64,000 nucleotides of DNA from Chrysemys picta bellii (lineage: Eukaryota), in NCBI RefSeq assembly GCF_011386835.1, contig NC_088791.1:88722001-88786000 (forward strand), written 5' to 3'. Made by a program: the position numbers. Positions 19,263 to 25,200 of this stretch are shown piece by piece; within the stretch, counting starts at the first letter, position 1, and the number at the start of each line of letters is the position of its first letter.

Positions 19263-22200
19263 TTACAAAACCAGAATAAACAGGCTATGTTAGCGCGTTG
19301 TGCTCTCTGTATATCGTCTGGGGGCCGACCTGTTTGAGAACTTTCAAAGAAAGGGGTGGAGCCTTGGCCCTGTTTTCCACCGCATCCCACCTCCTCCGGT
19401 TGCAGCTGCCTGCACGAGGCGTGCTTTAGAAGAAAAGAGGCGGGTTATTGAGTTTGCTGTCCACCTCTCCGCTCCCCTTCCCTCCCACCCTGCTGTAGTT
19501 ACATTCCCCGAGATTTGATTTAAAGAAGGAAGATAAAATAGATAGTGTGTCTCAGTATTACAAACGAATCTGTCAAAATTAGATGATCACAATGATCCCT
19601 TCTGGCTTTGGAATCTATGAAAAAGTCCTGCTTTCAGTAATTAGGTTTGCAATGTAACCCCGCAGTTACAGGTAATATCGCCCGTCACTGTGAATTGTGT
19701 AAAATAAGAGCCACTTTCCAACTGATTTTTTTATTTGTCCTTAGCTTATAATCTTCCTTTCTGGAAGGTCTTCCATCAAGAGGTTTTCATATTTGTGGCC
19801 ATTTTTTCAAACCCTCCCCTGATTTTCAAGCATTTACAGACAGCATCAAAATCTGACCAATCCGGTTTCCGGACACATCGTCTCTCCCCAGTCTTTTCTA
19901 AAGCCTGTTCAGGGAGGGTTAATATGAATGAAAAGTGCACATTTATTTCATCATAAGATAAAGCAGGACACCGCATTCTTTTCTTCCATTTGTTAAATTG
20001 GTTCATTTGGTGGTATGCTCGTTCTTACTGTTCCTTTCACAGTACATGCAATAGTGTGACTAATGCATAAAAACGACTGCAGAACTAATCGCTCACAAAA
20101 CCAGACTGCTTGCCCATTGCAGAGAAAAGAACTCATGTCTCTACCTCAGAGGCAGGAATCATTGTTTTATGTTGGGAAGGGGTCAGTTTCTGAATTGCTT
20201 ATATGCAAACGGGGGCTCGGGGGCAATACTTAGAAAACGATGTTATATGTGCAAACATGGCAACGCAAAGGCTACACTGCACCAATTTAGTACGAACCTT
20301 CATATCTTTGGAAAGCCTGGGTGAATATTATCTGAAGGGGGTTCTCAAAAGCCGTTGAAAAACGTGTCACCCTTTCTCGTTCCTTATCCTCTGTCAAAAT
20401 TAGATGATCAGACGCATGTGGTGGTATTATACCTGCCTCTGGAAATTTCCACCACATGCGTCTGATGAAGTGGGTATTCACCCACAAAAGCTTATGCTCC
20501 AAAACGTCTGTTAGGCTATAAGGTGCCACAGGACTCTGTCGCTTTTTACAGATCCAGACTAACTAACACTACCCTTCTGATAATTGCCCCATCTACCAGC
20601 TCCAGATGAATTGCATACACCATCTTCGATGAAATGAGATTGGACTTTAACAACAATAGCTCCAGCCCATGTCAACAAACTTCTTCTCTTCTCCCCAAAA
20701 GGACATTTATTACCATCTTTGATATAACCACAAGGGTTTTCCTTCTAAAACTCTCTCCAGCTAAAGGGAAAGGGAACAAAGGATATTATTAAAATTAAAG
20801 CCTTGTTTAATACTTTACATTTCAATGTTTGAACTGCTTTTTTTTCCTTTTCTGTATCTTTAATTAAAAAAAAAAAAGTTAAAAGGATGTATAACAGGCT
20901 TGACAACCCCCAAACCTTGTTTAATGCTGGCAGAGTGCATCTATCACACATCACAACATTCATAGTTTACACCAGTTCAATCTCACTGAAGTCAATATAA
21001 TTGCCACAAAGAAAAAGTTCAGCCATTGATTAAAATTGTGGGGAAATACATTTTATTGCCCACATTAAAATGTTCTCACAATGGTTGTCTTTAGAAGCTC
21101 AAGCTCCTCTATGCTTTAAGGCACATACTTGACATCAAGCAGACTGGCCACAAAAGTGTCAGGGATATCCTTTTTGTTATCCCCATGAAAATCTATCCCA
21201 GTGTGGACAAGTTATTAGCCTCTGAAAACTCTCAGTCCATACATGTTCAGCAGAGCATTTTTCGTTTGGCACCTAAATTGTCTGAAGATTGGCTTCCCTT
21301 ACTATTGTCCCTCCTCAGACAGTTAAGCAGAACTTCCCCTGCAAAAAAACTCCTTGCATCTATCAAGGATCACTGTGATTTCAGGCACTGGAAATTAAAG
21401 CAGGGAGACTGTCTTTTCTATAGTTTGCATGCCCCCACTTTTGGCATGTAGGCAGGATGAAGAAGCATATATTCAACTGGAATTCAGAGGGGTGAAGAGC
21501 TTGGTGAGAGAGCAGGAGACAGGAGATGGTGAAGGGGGAGGAGTAGGACATAGACAAGTTAGAAGGGTCTGAATAGAAAGGGTCACACTAAAGATGGAAA
21601 AGGGCAGAAGGGTCTGTAACTATAGAAAACACTCCCCTCTAGAGTCTGGAATAAAACCCAGGATTCCGGAATCTCAACATTCTTGTGTTGTAAGAAAATA
21701 TCTGTAAAACCCTCTGGAACAAATGTGTTTCCTTCTTCTCTAATGGCAGGTCCACATACGGGATAGCAATCTCAACTGGTTATCAGTTGGAACAACTAGC
21801 AGAGGTTTACACTAGTTCTAAATGTCCTTCCCAACCCTTAGGGAATTCCTAATGTATTCGAGTGAAGGTCATTCTGAGAAGCATCAGTAAGGATGTGATT
21901 TCTAGAGAATTGGGTAAAAGACTGAAAGCACAGCCCGGGAGAGAAACAAGAATAGAAAGCAGAGGTGGCGATGTAGGAGAGTATGAACAGAGCGGGTTTT
22001 AATCAAGGAAAAAGGAAGAACAATGAAAAATGCTTCCTCCCCCCCATTCCCCGTTATTAGTGCTCCACTTTCAGAGAATAAAAGTTTCCAAGTGCCCGAC
22101 GTATCTGATTTGAAGATAAACAAAAATCCCCGTGTGAGGTATTTTGTACTTGGTAAATTGACAGTACTCCACACACAACTCACCATCTTACATGGGGACC

Positions 22201-25200
22201 TATGGATTTAACAGTGACTCTCCCTACCTCCAATAAGAGAAGCGGGGACGAGTTGCCACAGGCCAATCCTTGCAAAGCGCGGGCTTTTCAAACTCACCAA
22301 CGGGATTAATCCTGATCCCACCACTGCCAGCTAGGCAGAAAAGTGTGTGTGTGTGTCTAGGTCATGCAGTTTACCCTCACACGCAGTCCTCACTCGCCCC
22401 TCCTACTAGACAATAAATCCTGTCTGGACCGAAGCTCATGTGCAAGGAATGGCCACCTTCCCCCTCCTTTTACACAATAAGCATGATTGCTAAAGCTCGT
22501 TCCCCTCCGTTTGGGGTTGTTGTTGTTTTCTGCTGGGTGGATAAGGGAAGAATTTGGCTGCTAGTGATCGTGAATTTGGGCTGATGCTCAGGATCGATTT
22601 TAATACACCCAGCTCGAATATAAATGAATTAACGTCCCGCATTTTAAAGTACTGATATTGTTATTTCTTGTCGCGGGCGAAGGAAAATGTACCAAACTGA
22701 TTCTAATTTTATGTCTCCCTATTTTCTATTATTTTCGTTTCTGAAAGTTGGGCGCTTCATGAAAAGCAGCACGAGGTTATTTAAACGAACCTGGTGTGTT
22801 TCAGCTCCTCTGGGAAAGGGTGGGTGGCTCTTAAAAGAGCCGTTGGATTTCTGTGCATGACATTTTTTCTAGCCCGTTTACTTCTTCTTGGGCGCTGCCT
22901 TCTTAGCCTTCGTTGCTTTAGGCTTCGTCGGTTTGGGCTTGGCCGCCTTAGGCTTTACCGCTTTGGCCTTAGCCGGGCTCTTAGCTGCCTTCTTGGGCTT
23001 AGCGGCTTTCACCTTTTTCGGGCTCTTGGCCGTTTTTTTAGCTGCGGCAGCTGCTGGTTTCTTGGCTTTTTTCGGGCTCTTTTTCACGGCCGCAGCTTTT
23101 TTGGGTTTCTTGGCGGCGCTGGCGGGCTTCTTGGCAGCTGGTTTCTTAGGCTTTGCCGCTGGCTTTTTCTTCGGCGCCTTCTCCTTGGTCTCGCCAGGCT
23201 TCTTGTTGAGTTTGAAGGAGCCGGATGCGCCGGTGCCTTTAGTCTGCACCAAGGTGCCCTTGCTCACCAGGCTCTTGAGCCCCAGCTTGATGCGGCTGTT
23301 GCTTTTCTCTACATCGTACCCTCCGGCGGCCAGAGCCTTCTTAACAGCTGCCAGCGAGACCCCTTTGCGCTCCTTGGAAGCGGACACCGCCTTGGTGATC
23401 AGCTCGGTCACGCTGGGACCTGGAGGCTTACGGGCTTTAGAAGTAGCTGGCGTCTTCTTCGGTTTTTTAGCGGAAGTTTTTGCCCCAGGAGCGGAGACAG
23501 CAGGAGCTGCAACAGGCGCCGTTTCCGACATAGCGATAAGCGTTTTCCAAAAATCAGAAAAGGAAAAAAAAACTAGATCTAGAGAAGGGCAGACGGCTGG
23601 TATTTATAGAGAGGAGCTGCTCTGTGATTGGCGCACTAAAGAGCCCGCCCAGCTGAAAGCAAAAAGGTCTCTTCTCCCCTCTCTGTGTTTCTTCGGAGTT
23701 AAAAAGGGGTACTTTTTGCAAAATATTTATCACCAAATCACCCTGTTTCTTAGTTGGGTGAAGAGGAGACAGGGCATTTTCATTCAGTAGAGTTTCCCGT
23801 AGGAGAGACTAAAGATAAGCTAAAAAATTGCCAATAAACCCCGAGACCTGGAGCTAGAGAGACCTCTGAAGAGGGAAACTTTTGTTTTTCGTTGTAAATT
23901 AAAACCATATCACTGTCAATAAAATCACATGTACACTTATATCTCATTCTTTAGAATGTTTTCTCCAAATCAAAGTATAAAGCCAGTCATTTGAAGCAAT
24001 GTTGTCAGTGTAAAATGATTTCAAAAAGAAGAAAGTAACACAAGCTCATCCTTGTGCTTTGAATAAGGATTAAGAATTGGCTCTCTTAACCAAATCTTCT
24101 ACCCCCTAAAATACTTAATTCTGTTGAAAAACTCCATTAATGAAAACAACAGAGAGCTGATCAAATACCTCAGGAGGGATATTTATGTTCCAGGAATTGT
24201 ATATAAAAGTTGTTGTGCTATTGTACCTTTCTAGGTATTGAAATAGAAGATTAACAAGATGTCATTATTATTTTGTAAATTTCAAATTCATTTTACTGTA
24301 TTGCTCTTTAACTTAATTTTATTCCAAGAAAGTCACTTCTGTTCATTAAAAGCAGTGGCAGTTTTTTAAATGGTAGTGTTCTGAACTTTAATTTAAAATA
24401 GAAGAACTATTAGGGTGTTTATTTCATTATAGTCTGTTAAAACTCATCGAAAGTCAGAAGCAATGTTTCAGTAAAAAACTAAACCATATGGAGAATTAAA
24501 GCTCAAAATCTGATCAATCAGTGCTTTTTTTTCCTTAGCATTAATATATTATATGAAAATGGCTTCTGTAGTGAGGAAAATCAATGTTAACAGTGTGATT
24601 TAGTCATATCTGTATTGCATCAAGAACTGAATGAGATTTTTAATCTGTTCTGCAACATTACTAAAGATGATTCACTCTTTTGTTCTTTTAAAAGTGATGG
24701 GGGCATTCAAACAGTTTAAAAATCAATCCAAAAATTCTTTTTAAAGACAATGTCAAATTCCAGGCGGGGGGGGGGGGGGGAGGCTTATTTATTCATCATT
24801 TACCTTAGAGTTGCAAACAATTGAGGAAATTGCTTTTCTTTCAATTCTGCAATGGTAGTTAGGTTTTACTTGTGATTATATTGGGTGAAAACTAGGCCAC
24901 AGTCAGCTATTAAACAACGGTGAAGAAGCCCAATTTTAGATTGAATGTAATATAATAATACAATAATAATATTTAAACATAATTAATAAAAATGCAAAAC
25001 ATAATTGTGACAGTGTACCCCATAGGGCTTTATGGGGGGGTGCTTATAAATGTATGTATGACATAATTGGAATATGTTTTGTGCTGCCTGTGCCATGTAA
25101 TATATCTCCGTAAAGGTTATGGTCTACTATATCTATTCATGCTATCTGTACACATATATCATTTTCTACTTGAGGTTAAGAATATGGGCTGTATACTTGC

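What the first reader, a model, noticed from the sequence alone, without database searches (positions are those of the whole stretch)
22050..22297. A dispersed non-coding module occurs five times, and only two copies precede a gene
Seen: related sequence at ~14880-15466(+) and its mirror (both upstream of H3), 22050-22297(+), 53208-53556(-) and 54967-55545(+). All end at the same 16-bp motif, and three have no H3 or recognisable gene downstream. Inference: either orphan promoters of deleted H3 genes, or a locus-level element (cell-cycle enhancer, histone locus body nucleation site or origin) retained independently of genes. Retention of the terminal motif favours function.
Basis: partly seen in the sequence, partly recalled or inferred. 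Interest (0 to 1): 0.68.

Follow-up and report, generated by a model that had tools for sequence, protein, structure and literature searches.

The report
Histone H3 upstream motif kept in gene-less copies
A turtle-like histone gene cluster carries six related spacer segments, most ending in the same short DNA site that sits in front of the H3 genes, and that site is far better preserved than the rest, so it looks like a working protein-binding site and not a leftover.

Summary
The 16-nt motif GCGCGGGCTTTTCAAA occurs 9 times (8 exact; 0.02 expected). Five of these sit in one 51-bp tandem array.

There are six loci, not five. I found a decayed copy at 63570-63854(-) that has lost the motif.

The six loci reduce to three lineages:
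- An H3-linked pair made by one 3.3-kb, 99.85 % inverted duplication.
- An H1-linked pair carried along with an old H1 duplication.
- An inverted pair bracketing H2A.

The H3-upstream copy shares only three short collinear anchors with the gene-less family.

The terminal block is much better conserved than the rest: a 22-nt exact run between copies that are 53 % identical (0 of 5000 permutations). Both of its CpGs are kept.

No H3 remnant, core promoter, known RNA family or transposon hallmark lies at the gene-less copies.

Best reading: paralogous spacer relics carrying a constrained H3 upstream factor-binding site.

No eukaryotic DNA collection was available, so the genome-wide transposon test could not be run.

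The parts
14879..15466 (+). H3-linked copy: runs from the 5' anchor AGACGACATGGG (14879-14890), through the mid anchor (15213-15230), to the terminal motif (15451-15466). It lies between H4 (13997-14308) and H3 (15617-16027).
17766..18353 (-). Mirror of the H3-linked copy inside the 99.85 % inverted duplication (12840-16130 vs 20392-17102). It is the same event, not an independent copy.
15451..15538 (+). H3 promoter context: motif 15451-15466, a second TTCAAA at 15470-15475, distal CCAAT 15479-15483, proximal CCAAT 15507-15511, TATA-like run 15530-15538, ATG 15617.
   Evidence: read directly
21981..22325 (+). Gene-less copy o22. Clear homology starts near 22044 and the 5' anchor is absent. CCAAT box at 22263-22267, exact motif at 22277-22292. 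It is convergent with H1a, about 505 bp from the H1a stem-loop (22802-22846).
53178..53557 (-). Gene-less copy o53. 5' anchor at 53530-53541; motif at 53210-53225 with one C>T change in the 4-nt spacer. It lies downstream of H2A on the same strand, and its motif end abuts the 'A' segment (52804-53188).
54968..55357 (+). Gene-less copy o54. 5' anchor at 54983-54994, mid anchor at 55155-55172, first motif at 55324-55339. With o53 it forms an outward-pointing inverted repeat (71-75 % identical) around H2A.
55312..55548 (+). Tandem array of the 51-bp terminal unit (4.6 copies, 96 % matches), bounded by AATCCT microhomology. It holds 5 exact motifs.
63570..63854 (-). Sixth, decayed copy o63, downstream of and convergent with H1b. 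The CCAAT box is kept, but the motif is broken (GTGCGG) and about 30 nt including TTTTCAAA are missing. It is collinear with o22 within the old H1a/H1b duplication.

Best explanation
The 'module' is a family of paralogous spacer segments of a turtle-like replication-dependent histone cluster. It was spread by the segmental, often inverted, duplications and rearrangements that built the cluster, not by five independent insertions.

Six loci reduce to three lineages:
- An H3-linked pair made by one recent 3.3-kb palindromic duplication.
- An H1-linked pair copied together with H1.
- An inverted pair bracketing H2A.

The 3' end of the module is a bipartite site: a GC core GCGCGG, 4 nt, then TTCAAA, with TGCA and in the older copies a CCAAT box just upstream. 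At H3 this site sits 12 bp upstream of the distal CCAAT box. That is about 95-110 bp upstream of the start site inferred from the TATA-like run. I read it as an H3 upstream promoter element bound by a sequence-specific factor.

The gene-less copies are relics of the same ancestral segment, separated from H3 by rearrangement. In three of the four gene-less loci the site, and little else, has been held by purifying selection, and in one it was amplified to five tandem copies. They therefore most likely still bind the factor and act as extra docking sites inside the CpG-preserved histone islands.

Shown: the family, its lineages, the anchors, the excess conservation, the CpG retention and the position at H3.
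Inferred: factor binding, selection as the cause of retention, and any regulatory effect of the gene-less copies.
For: Family and lineages:
- A profile of the gene-less copies finds 4 loci plus 4 extra array units and nothing else. The next hit has E 1.1. The best E over 10 block-shuffled windows was 0.6.
- The H3 pair lies inside a 99.848 % inverted duplication.
- o22 and o63 are collinear with the H1a/H1b duplication: 22774-24190 vs 63372-62003, 22086-22148 vs 63782-63721, and 22252-22282 vs 63623-63593.

Link to H3:
- Three collinear anchors, each rare in the window.
- The motif lies next to the CCAAT boxes and TATA-like run of H3.
- One search lists no motif in the regions upstream of the three H4 genes, H2A or the two H1 genes. 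The H4 promoters carry a different TTTCAA-type element.

Constraint:
- A 22-nt exact run between copies that are 53 % identical (0 of 5000 permutations).
- Motif CpGs kept 2 of 2 among o22, o53 and o54, against 1-3 of 7-12 aligned CpGs elsewhere.
- The one substitution among the nine motifs falls in the 4-nt spacer, so GCGCGS-N4-TTYRAA is intact 9 of 9 times (0.02 expected).

Context:
- All 6 loci lie in four CpG-preserved islands: CpG observed/expected 0.5-1.2 against 0.1-0.25 outside.

Against a transposon or RNA gene:
- No inverted repeat pairs the two ends of the copy in any of 4 regions.
- 0 tRNA-like genes.
- No Rfam family other than histone stem-loops.

Literature:
- Passages in PMC5706932 name subtype-specific elements for H2B and H4 but none for H3.
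- A passage in PMC12979687 reports little NPAT at human H3 promoters.
- So an H3-specific site would fill a known gap.
Against: - The relation of the H3-upstream segment to the family rests on three short anchors only. Its interior scores like shuffles against o53 and o22, and the profile gives E 0.04 for the motif alone.
- Both H3 genes are one duplication, so 'H3-specific' is n = 1.
- One gene-less copy (o63) has lost the motif. o53 lacks 5 nt just upstream of it. For the youngest pair, o53/o54, the block is no better conserved than chance (1264 of 5000).
- The copies sit in generally CpG-preserved islands, so CpG survival may reflect hypomethylation and not binding.
- The CCAAT-TGCA part is not enriched on its own: 13 hits against 8.7 expected, and 7 of 100 shuffles reach 13.
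- The copies share sharp ends while their flanks are unrelated. 0 of 10 3'-flank pairs match. 2 of 10 5'-flank pairs match: one is the histone stem-loop and the other a 25-nt match at E 0.031. A mobile element would also show this.
- No binding, accessibility, expression or cross-species data could be consulted.
Confidence: 0.5

Rival explanations
1. A non-autonomous mobile element of about 380 bp with defined ends inserted several times in or near the histone cluster. One old copy in front of H3 was co-opted, so its terminal motif now serves as an H3 upstream element.
For: - The copies share both ends, while their flanks are unrelated.
- The window does hold other short repeat families, such as palindromic elements at 16598-16764 and 27377-27549 and their relatives.
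- o53 directly abuts another repeated segment, 'A'.
Against: - No inverted repeat pairs the two ends of a copy.
- No target-site duplication is visible at the junctions printed. This was judged by eye and the boundaries are uncertain by about 10 nt.
- No tRNA-like head and no A-rich tail.
- 0 copies lie in the roughly 49 kb outside the histone islands.
- Two of the three pairs are explained by segmental duplication with their genes.
Confidence: 0.2
2. The copies are neutral relics with no present function. The motif survives in the gene-less copies through germline hypomethylation of the histone islands, short gene conversion from H3 promoters, and chance. Only the H3-linked site is functional.
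For: - The whole neighbourhood is CpG-preserved, not only the copies.
- o63 has lost the motif and o53 carries a substitution and a 5-nt deletion beside it.
- The gene-less copies have no TATA-like core promoter within about 100 nt downstream of the motif (read).
- The tandem array is bounded by AATCCT microhomology, as a slippage product would be.
Against: - A 22-nt exact run at 53 % background identity is reached in 0 of 5000 permutations.
- Hypomethylation slows CpG decay, but the 12 non-CpG positions of the motif are equally intact.
- Conversion tracts need flanking homology, which is about 53 % here. This last point is inference from general knowledge of recombination, not a call.
Confidence: 0.25
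3. The site is a CDE/CHR-type cell-cycle element: a GC-rich CDE-like core, a 4-bp spacer and a CHR hexamer. It would be read by MuvB/DREAM through LIN54 and an E2F-type partner, and would tie H3 and the gene-less copies to cell-cycle control.
For: - TTCAAA fits the LIN54 consensus TTYRAA, and a CDE lies 4 bp upstream of the CHR in many DREAM targets (passages of PMC4974476).
- Inverse CHRs (TTCAAA) are functional, and many human histone genes are DREAM-bound without a recognised CHR or E2F site (passages of PMC4176359).
- The pattern GCGCGS-N4-TTYRAA is intact in 9 of 9 motifs, and the only substitution is in the spacer.
Against: - The CDE code SGCGCGS is met in 6 of 7 positions only: the first base is A, or T in o53.
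- Functional CHRs lie at or very near the start site (PMC4176359). This site lies about 95-110 bp upstream of the inferred H3 start, and the gene-less copies have no start site.
- CDE/CHR genes peak in G2/M, whereas histone genes peak in S phase (PMC6314538 passages).
- The fit was noticed after the fact.
Confidence: 0.15
4. The gene-less copies are promoters of unannotated transcripts, such as a non-coding RNA or a divergent histone-related gene.
For: - CpG-preserved context.
- CCAAT boxes in o22 and o63.
- The reverse complement of the 5' anchor reads ATGTC, as the H4, H2A and H1 genes start.
Against: - No Rfam match.
- No conserved reading frame: the ATG in the anchor opens only 8 codons in o53 and o54 (read).
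- 3' flanks are unrelated between copies.
- No TATA-like element at the H3-like distance.
- The ATGTC match is 5 nt only.
Confidence: 0.05

Closest known systems
Histone subtype-specific promoter elements (H4 Site II/SSRE with HiNF-P; H2B octamer with Oct-1/OCA-S; H1 promoters with CRAMP1)
   Same: A short, invariant site beside the CCAAT and TATA elements of one histone subtype. It is absent from the other subtypes' promoters in the window. The concept is taken from passages of PMC5706932 and PMC12979687.
   Different: - No H3 element of this kind is named in the passages I read.
- The site here also persists in gene-less copies and as a 5-unit tandem array.
- Its factor is unknown.
- I recall a similar GC-core/T-run element upstream of the distal CCAAT box of mammalian H3 genes, but no call checked that.
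CDE/CHR cell-cycle element (DREAM/MuvB, LIN54)
   Same: GC-rich core, 4-bp spacer and a TTYRAA hexamer; CCAAT boxes nearby.
   Different: - The CDE code is met 6 of 7.
- The site lies about 100 bp upstream of the inferred start instead of at it.
- The target is an S-phase gene, not a G2/M gene.
- Binding was not tested.
Drosophila H3-H4 promoter GA repeats bound by CLAMP, which seed the histone locus body
   Same: A cis element tied to the H3 promoter region that could act at the level of the locus (abstract of PMC5588930 in the listing).
   Different: - The sequence is different.
- H4 and H3 are in tandem here, not divergent.
- There is no evidence of nuclear-body seeding.
- The copies here lie away from promoters.
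Relic flanks and pseudogenes in jumbled vertebrate histone clusters evolving by birth and death
   Same: Jumbled order, single genes, pseudogenes and local duplications, as described for chickens and mammals (passages of PMC13525598). An inverted duplication of chicken histone genes is something I recall from a 1985 paper that I could not retrieve.
   Different: Here the relic is a non-coding segment whose one short site stays intact while the rest has drifted to about 50 % identity.
Short non-autonomous transposons (MITE or SINE type)
   Same: About 380 bp, non-coding, several copies with shared ends and unrelated flanks.
   Different: - No inverted repeat pairing the two ends, no visible target-site duplication, no tRNA-like head and no tail.
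- All copies lie in histone islands.

Membership tests
Histone subtype-specific promoter element | Fixed position in the proximal or upstream promoter of genes of one subtype | tested here: inconclusive
   Both H3 genes carry it 151 nt before the ATG and 12 nt before the distal CCAAT box. But they are one 99.85 % duplication, so n = 1.
Histone subtype-specific promoter element | Absent from the promoters of other histone subtypes | tested here: met
   None of the 9 motif hits lies in the 5' flank of the 3 H4 genes, the H2A or the 2 H1 genes. The H4 promoters show a different element.
Histone subtype-specific promoter element | Conserved in orthologous and paralogous genes of other species, and bound by a defined factor needed for S-phase transcription | not testable with these tools
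   No eukaryotic DNA collection and no functional data were available.
CDE/CHR element | CHR hexamer TTYRAA | tested here: met
   TTCAAA in 9 of 9 motifs. The consensus is from PMC4974476 passages.
CDE/CHR element | [quoted passage not shown] | tested here: inconclusive
   The 4-bp spacing is met in 9 of 9. The CDE code is met in 6 of 7 positions: the first base is A in 8 motifs and T in o53.
CDE/CHR element | Located at or very near the transcription start site | tested here: not met
   The motif ends 63 nt before the TATA-like run of H3, about 95-110 bp upstream of the inferred start. The gene-less copies have no recognisable core promoter. The criterion is from PMC4176359 passages.
CDE/CHR element | DREAM/MMB occupancy and G2/M peak expression | not testable with these tools
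   There are no binding data. Histone genes peak in S phase (PMC6314538 passages), which argues against membership.
Orphan promoter of a deleted H3 gene | Homology to the H3 5' flank continuing through the CCAAT and TATA elements to a deletion breakpoint | tested here: not met
   - Similarity to the H3 flank ends at the motif.
- 3' flanks against the H3 proximal promoter give 0 hits at E <= 0.05.
- The gene-less copies share their own 3' end about 25 nt past the motif.
Orphan promoter of a deleted H3 gene | Remnant of H3 coding sequence downstream | tested here: not met
   tblastn with the window's H3 finds only 15617-16024 and 17615-17208. All other hits have E >= 5 and lie elsewhere.
Interspersed transposon (MITE/SINE) | Many copies dispersed genome-wide, unrelated to gene families | not testable with these tools
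Within the window, 0 copies lie outside the histone islands.
Interspersed transposon (MITE/SINE) | Terminal inverted repeats or a tRNA-like head with a tail, and target-site duplications | tested here: not met
   - No inverted repeat joins the two ends in any of 4 regions.
- ARAGORN finds 0 genes.
- No duplication is visible at the junctions (by eye). Old copies could have lost these marks.
Histone-locus-body seeding element (Drosophila CLAMP/GA-repeat type) | Lies in the divergent H3-H4 promoter and is sufficient to nucleate the body | not testable with these tools
   H4 and H3 are in tandem here. Sufficiency needs a transgene experiment.

The most novel reading that the evidence does not exclude
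The H3-type site is the vertebrate counterpart of a locus-seeding element. The gene-less copies and the five-unit array would be kept because they dock the as yet unknown H3-promoter factor throughout the cluster. That would help assemble or bound the histone locus body, or coordinate S-phase firing of neighbouring H1, H2A and H4 genes, independently of any H3 gene.
Probability: 0.08. Interest if true: 0.8.

Novelty: new member of a known kind. Interest (0 to 1): 0.38.

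Why it matters
H2B, H4 and H1 genes each have a named subtype-specific element or factor (passages of PMC5706932; PMC12979687). None is named for H3 in what I read, and NPAT is reported to accumulate little at human H3 promoters.

This is a short, sharply conserved site beside the H3 CCAAT boxes. It also survives in gene-less copies that have otherwise drifted to about 50 % identity. That makes it a concrete candidate for the missing H3 element and a ready probe for pulling down its factor.

If the gene-less copies prove to be bound, they would be an example of regulatory sites kept at the level of the cluster and not of the gene. 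If they are not bound, the finding is an ordinary by-product of birth-and-death evolution in a jumbled histone cluster.

Tried and rejected
1. A seventh copy at 26755-26827 had E 0.017 with the 3-sequence profile. It fell to E 1.1 with the 4-sequence profile, within the range of shuffled windows, so I rejected it as chance.
2. Whole-length homology of the H3-upstream segment to the family is rejected. MAFFT placed it only by long gaps, and its interior scores like shuffles against two of three copies.
3. An extension of homology into the flanks was not found.
4. Known RNA families and tRNA-like sequences in or beside the copies: none.
5. A short reading frame opening at the ATG of the 5' anchor has only 8 codons in o53 and o54 and differs in the H3-linked copy (read). 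Rejected.
6. The reverse complement of the 5' anchor as the relic start codon of a divergent H4, H2A or H1 gene: only ATGTC is shared. Not supported.
7. The motif region as a conserved palindrome or hairpin (TTGCAAAGC ... GCTTTTCAA in o22): the left arm varies between copies and is deleted in o53. Rejected.
8. The CCAAT-TGCA block as an independently enriched motif: 13 hits against 8.7 expected, not significant.
9. CENP-B box reading: the preprint 10.64898/2026.04.10.717743 ties binding to multiple CCAAT boxes and hairpins, not to a site like this one (passages). Not pursued.
10. Literature:
   - No occurrence of my terms in PMC1794435.
   - No paper found for 'Inverted duplication of histone' plus chicken or for Artishevsky plus histone H3 plus promoter.
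   - The DOI look-up of the 1985 chicken paper failed.
   - I did not search the library for the motif string itself.
11. Supplementary tables of PMC4176359, which list CHR-like elements and histone genes, were closed and may bear on the CDE/CHR reading.

Full report
**What the window is.** The window has no N. It holds replication-dependent histone genes with histone 3' stem-loops:
- H4 13997-14308(+)
- H3 15617-16027(+)
- H3 17205-17615(-)
- H4 18924-19235(-)
- H1 22878-23531(-)
- H2A 53864-54253(-)
- H4 56330-56641(-)
- a second H1 at about 62646-63256(+)

The intact H1 finds turtles as its nearest named relatives: 11 of the 13 best rows are turtles and the other 2 are birds. I therefore take the contig to be from a turtle, not from a human. 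So everything below rests on the 64 kb itself and on papers.

**The motif.** GCGCGGGCTTTTCAAA gives 9 matches at up to 2 mismatches: 8 exact and one with a single C>T. 0.02 are expected and 0 of 100 shuffles reach 9. The sites are 15451(+), 17766(-), 22277(+), 53210(-), and five at 55324-55544(+). Those five belong to a 51-bp tandem array (55312-55545, 4.6 units, 96 % matches). The unit is bounded by AATCCT microhomology that is already present around the single unit in the 22-kb copy.

**The copies.** Three gene-less copies are clearly related:
- o22 at 22044-22325(+)
- o53 at 53178-53557(-)
- o54 at 54968-55357(+)

A profile built from them found a further, decayed copy at 63593-63804(-), E 3e-7. 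With that copy added, the profile recovers four loci plus four extra array units. Nothing else scores better than E 0.04, and the best E in ten block-shuffled windows was 0.6. An earlier candidate at 26.7 kb fell to E 1.1 and is chance.

The sixth copy, o63, keeps the CCAAT box. It reads GTGCGG where the others read GCGCGG, and it lacks about 30 nt including TTTTCAAA. So 5 of 6 loci end at the motif, not all of them.

**How independent are the copies?** Less than the finding suggests.
- The two H3-upstream copies lie inside one inverted duplication, 12840-16130 vs 20392-17102, 99.848 % identical over 3291 bp.
- o22 and o63 lie downstream of, and convergent with, two H1 genes that are themselves an old inverted duplication (22774-24190 vs 63372-62003, 73 %). 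The pieces of o22 and o63 are collinear with it.
- o53 and o54 are an inverted repeat, 71-75 % identical, pointing outward around H2A.

Six loci are thus three lineages. Pairwise identities are 75 % for o53-o54, 56 % for o22-o63 and 46-53 % across the two pairs. These fit ((o53,o54),(o22,o63)).

**Is the H3-upstream segment really a member?** Only in part. The profile hits nothing but 15449-15466 (E 0.04). The interior of the H3-upstream segment aligns to o53 and o22 no better than shuffles do (271 and 220 of 300 shuffles reach the score).

What is shared is three short blocks in the same order and orientation:
- AGAYGACATGGG at the 5' end: 4 hits in the window, all at the starts of the H3-linked pair, o53 and o54, against 0.61 expected.
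- GTTTGRAAGTSAAATAGA in the middle: 3 hits, in the H3 pair and o54, against 0.31 expected. As the best local alignment it is reached by 5 of 300 shuffles.
- The terminal motif.

I read this as old common descent with only the anchors left. It is the weakest link in the chain.

**Is the motif better kept than the rest?** Yes, for the older comparisons.
- o22 and o54 are 53 % identical over 314 aligned columns yet share a 22-nt exact run (0 of 5000 permutations of the match vector).
- o22 and o53 share 15 nt (48 of 5000).
- For the younger pair o53-o54, a 20-nt run is unremarkable (1264 of 5000).
- Comparisons with o63 show nothing.
- The two CpGs of the motif are kept 2 of 2 among o22, o53 and o54, while only 1-3 of 7-12 aligned CpGs survive outside it.
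- The one substitution among the nine motifs lies in the four bases between GCGCGG and TTCAAA, so GCGCGS-N4-TTYRAA is intact 9 of 9 times.

The 5' anchor is similarly well kept in the three lineage members that have it.

**What lies around the copies.**
- At H3 the motif is followed by a second TTCAAA, the distal CCAAT box 12 nt later, the proximal CCAAT box, a TATA-like run 63 nt after the motif, and the ATG 151 nt after it. The site is thus about 95-110 bp upstream of the start inferred from the TATA-like run.
- One search lists no motif upstream of the H4, H2A or H1 genes. The H4 promoters carry a different TTTCAA/GGTCG-type element.
- Downstream of the gene-less copies there is no H3 remnant, no match to the H3 proximal promoter and no mutual flank homology, no TATA-like run at the H3 distance, and no Rfam or tRNA-like hit.
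- The gene-less copies share their own 3' end about 25 nt past the motif. That speaks against three separate deletions of H3.
- All six loci lie in four CpG-preserved islands: about 12.6-20.4, 21.9-23.7, 53.0-56.6 and 62.3-63.9 kb. CpG observed/expected there is about 0.5-1.2, against 0.1-0.25 in the DNA between them. The copies are not richer in CpG than their island neighbours.

**Explanation.** I think these are paralogous spacer segments of the cluster, moved about by the duplications and inversions that jumble vertebrate histone clusters (passages of PMC13525598). Their one durable part is a factor-binding site that serves as an upstream element of the H3 promoter. The excess conservation is best explained by purifying selection: the non-CpG positions are as intact as the CpGs, and conversion between segments only about 53 % alike is unlikely (that last point is inference). 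So at least o22 and o54 probably still bind the factor. The array multiplies the site fivefold. Factor binding and any regulatory effect are inferred, not shown.

**Which factor?** The site can be read as a near-CDE, a 4-bp spacer and a CHR of the TTYRAA class.
- For: this is the arrangement described for DREAM/MuvB targets (passages of PMC4974476). Inverse CHRs work, and many human histone genes are DREAM-bound without a recognised CHR or E2F site (passages of PMC4176359).
- Against membership: the CDE code is met 6 of 7. The site is about 100 bp from the inferred start, whereas CHRs sit at the start. CDE/CHR genes peak in G2/M (PMC6314538 passages).

I give this reading about 0.15. From memory, mammalian H3 promoters have a similar GC-core/T-run element before the distal CCAAT box. 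No call checked this.

**Rivals.**
- A short transposon co-opted by H3 remains possible, because the copies have sharp shared ends and unrelated flanks. But it lacks an inverted repeat pairing its two ends, a visible target-site duplication, a tRNA-like head or a tail. It also has no copy in the roughly 49 kb outside the histone islands.
- Neutral relics protected by hypomethylation are possible too. The decayed o63 and the damaged o53 show that retention is not absolute.

**Papers.** I saw only search listings with abstract openings and passages returned by term searches. I read no paper whole, and supplements were closed. The statement that no H3-specific element is named rests on the passages of PMC5706932 and PMC6314538 and on searches. 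It is not a claim about the whole literature.

**Verdict.** This is a real feature, modestly interesting. It is a candidate H3 subtype-specific upstream site that has outlived its gene in several relic copies. Everything decisive lies outside what could be run here: a genome-wide census, cross-species synteny and occupancy data.

Noticed in passing
12815-13206(+), mirror about 20026-20392(-), and 52804-53188(+): A second non-coding repeated segment, 'A', 68 % identical over 406 columns. In the first island it marks both outer edges of the palindrome. In the third island it directly abuts the motif end of o53. The first copy starts with an (AAAC)n run.
   Followed up: partly
62646-63256(+), stem-loop region about 63289-63349: The second H1 gene has its ATG in one frame and the H1-like frame shifted from about codon 10. 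It has a small insertion in the globular domain, and its 3' stem-loop falls below the Rfam threshold (one arm reads AGAGGC). It is either a pseudogene or carries an assembly indel. The module copy beside it is the one that lost the motif.
   Followed up: partly
53864-54253(-) and 54254-54967: H2A stands alone. No H2B reading frame lies on the divergent side (none of at least 95 codons), although CCAAT boxes and an octamer-like TTTGCAT remain upstream. About 500 bp of CpG-poorer DNA fills the place where an H2B would fit.
   Followed up: no
12840-16130 vs 20392-17102; spacer 16131-17101: A near-perfect 3.3-kb palindrome (H4-H3 tail to tail with H3-H4), 99.848 % identical. Its 971-bp spacer holds a self-complementary short element at 16598-16764, close to the centre of symmetry. 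That element might have mediated the inverted duplication.
   Followed up: no
16598-16764, 27377-27549, 20482-20582, 32703-32807, 52166-52241: A family of short palindromic, MITE-like repeats. Two copies are self-complementary at 89-92 %. They are scattered both inside and outside the histone islands.
   Followed up: no
36214-37287 and 47740-48830; ORFs 39392-44531: Two 1.1-kb direct repeats (84 %) lie 11.5 kb apart around several reading frames. One of 5 frames scanned carries a reverse-transcriptase domain (44172-44528, PF00078, E 1e-8). This is a broken retroelement. I only described it and did not reconstruct it.
   Followed up: partly
25684-26196 vs 58904-58381: A 530-bp inverted repeat pair, 90 % identical, 32 kb apart, of unknown nature.
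   Followed up: no
12.6-20.4, 21.9-23.7, 53.0-56.6 and 62.3-63.9 kb: CpG observed/expected switches sharply from about 0.1-0.25 to 0.5-1.2 at the edges of each histone subcluster. o22, the 'A' segment with o53, and o63 lie at such edges.
   Followed up: partly
55143-55162 vs 55333-55347 and later array units; 15044-15057 vs 15456-15469: The mid anchor holds GTTTGAAA, the reverse complement of the TTTCAAAC at the end of the terminal motif. Each fuller copy therefore carries the hexamer in both orientations about 170-400 nt apart.
   Followed up: no
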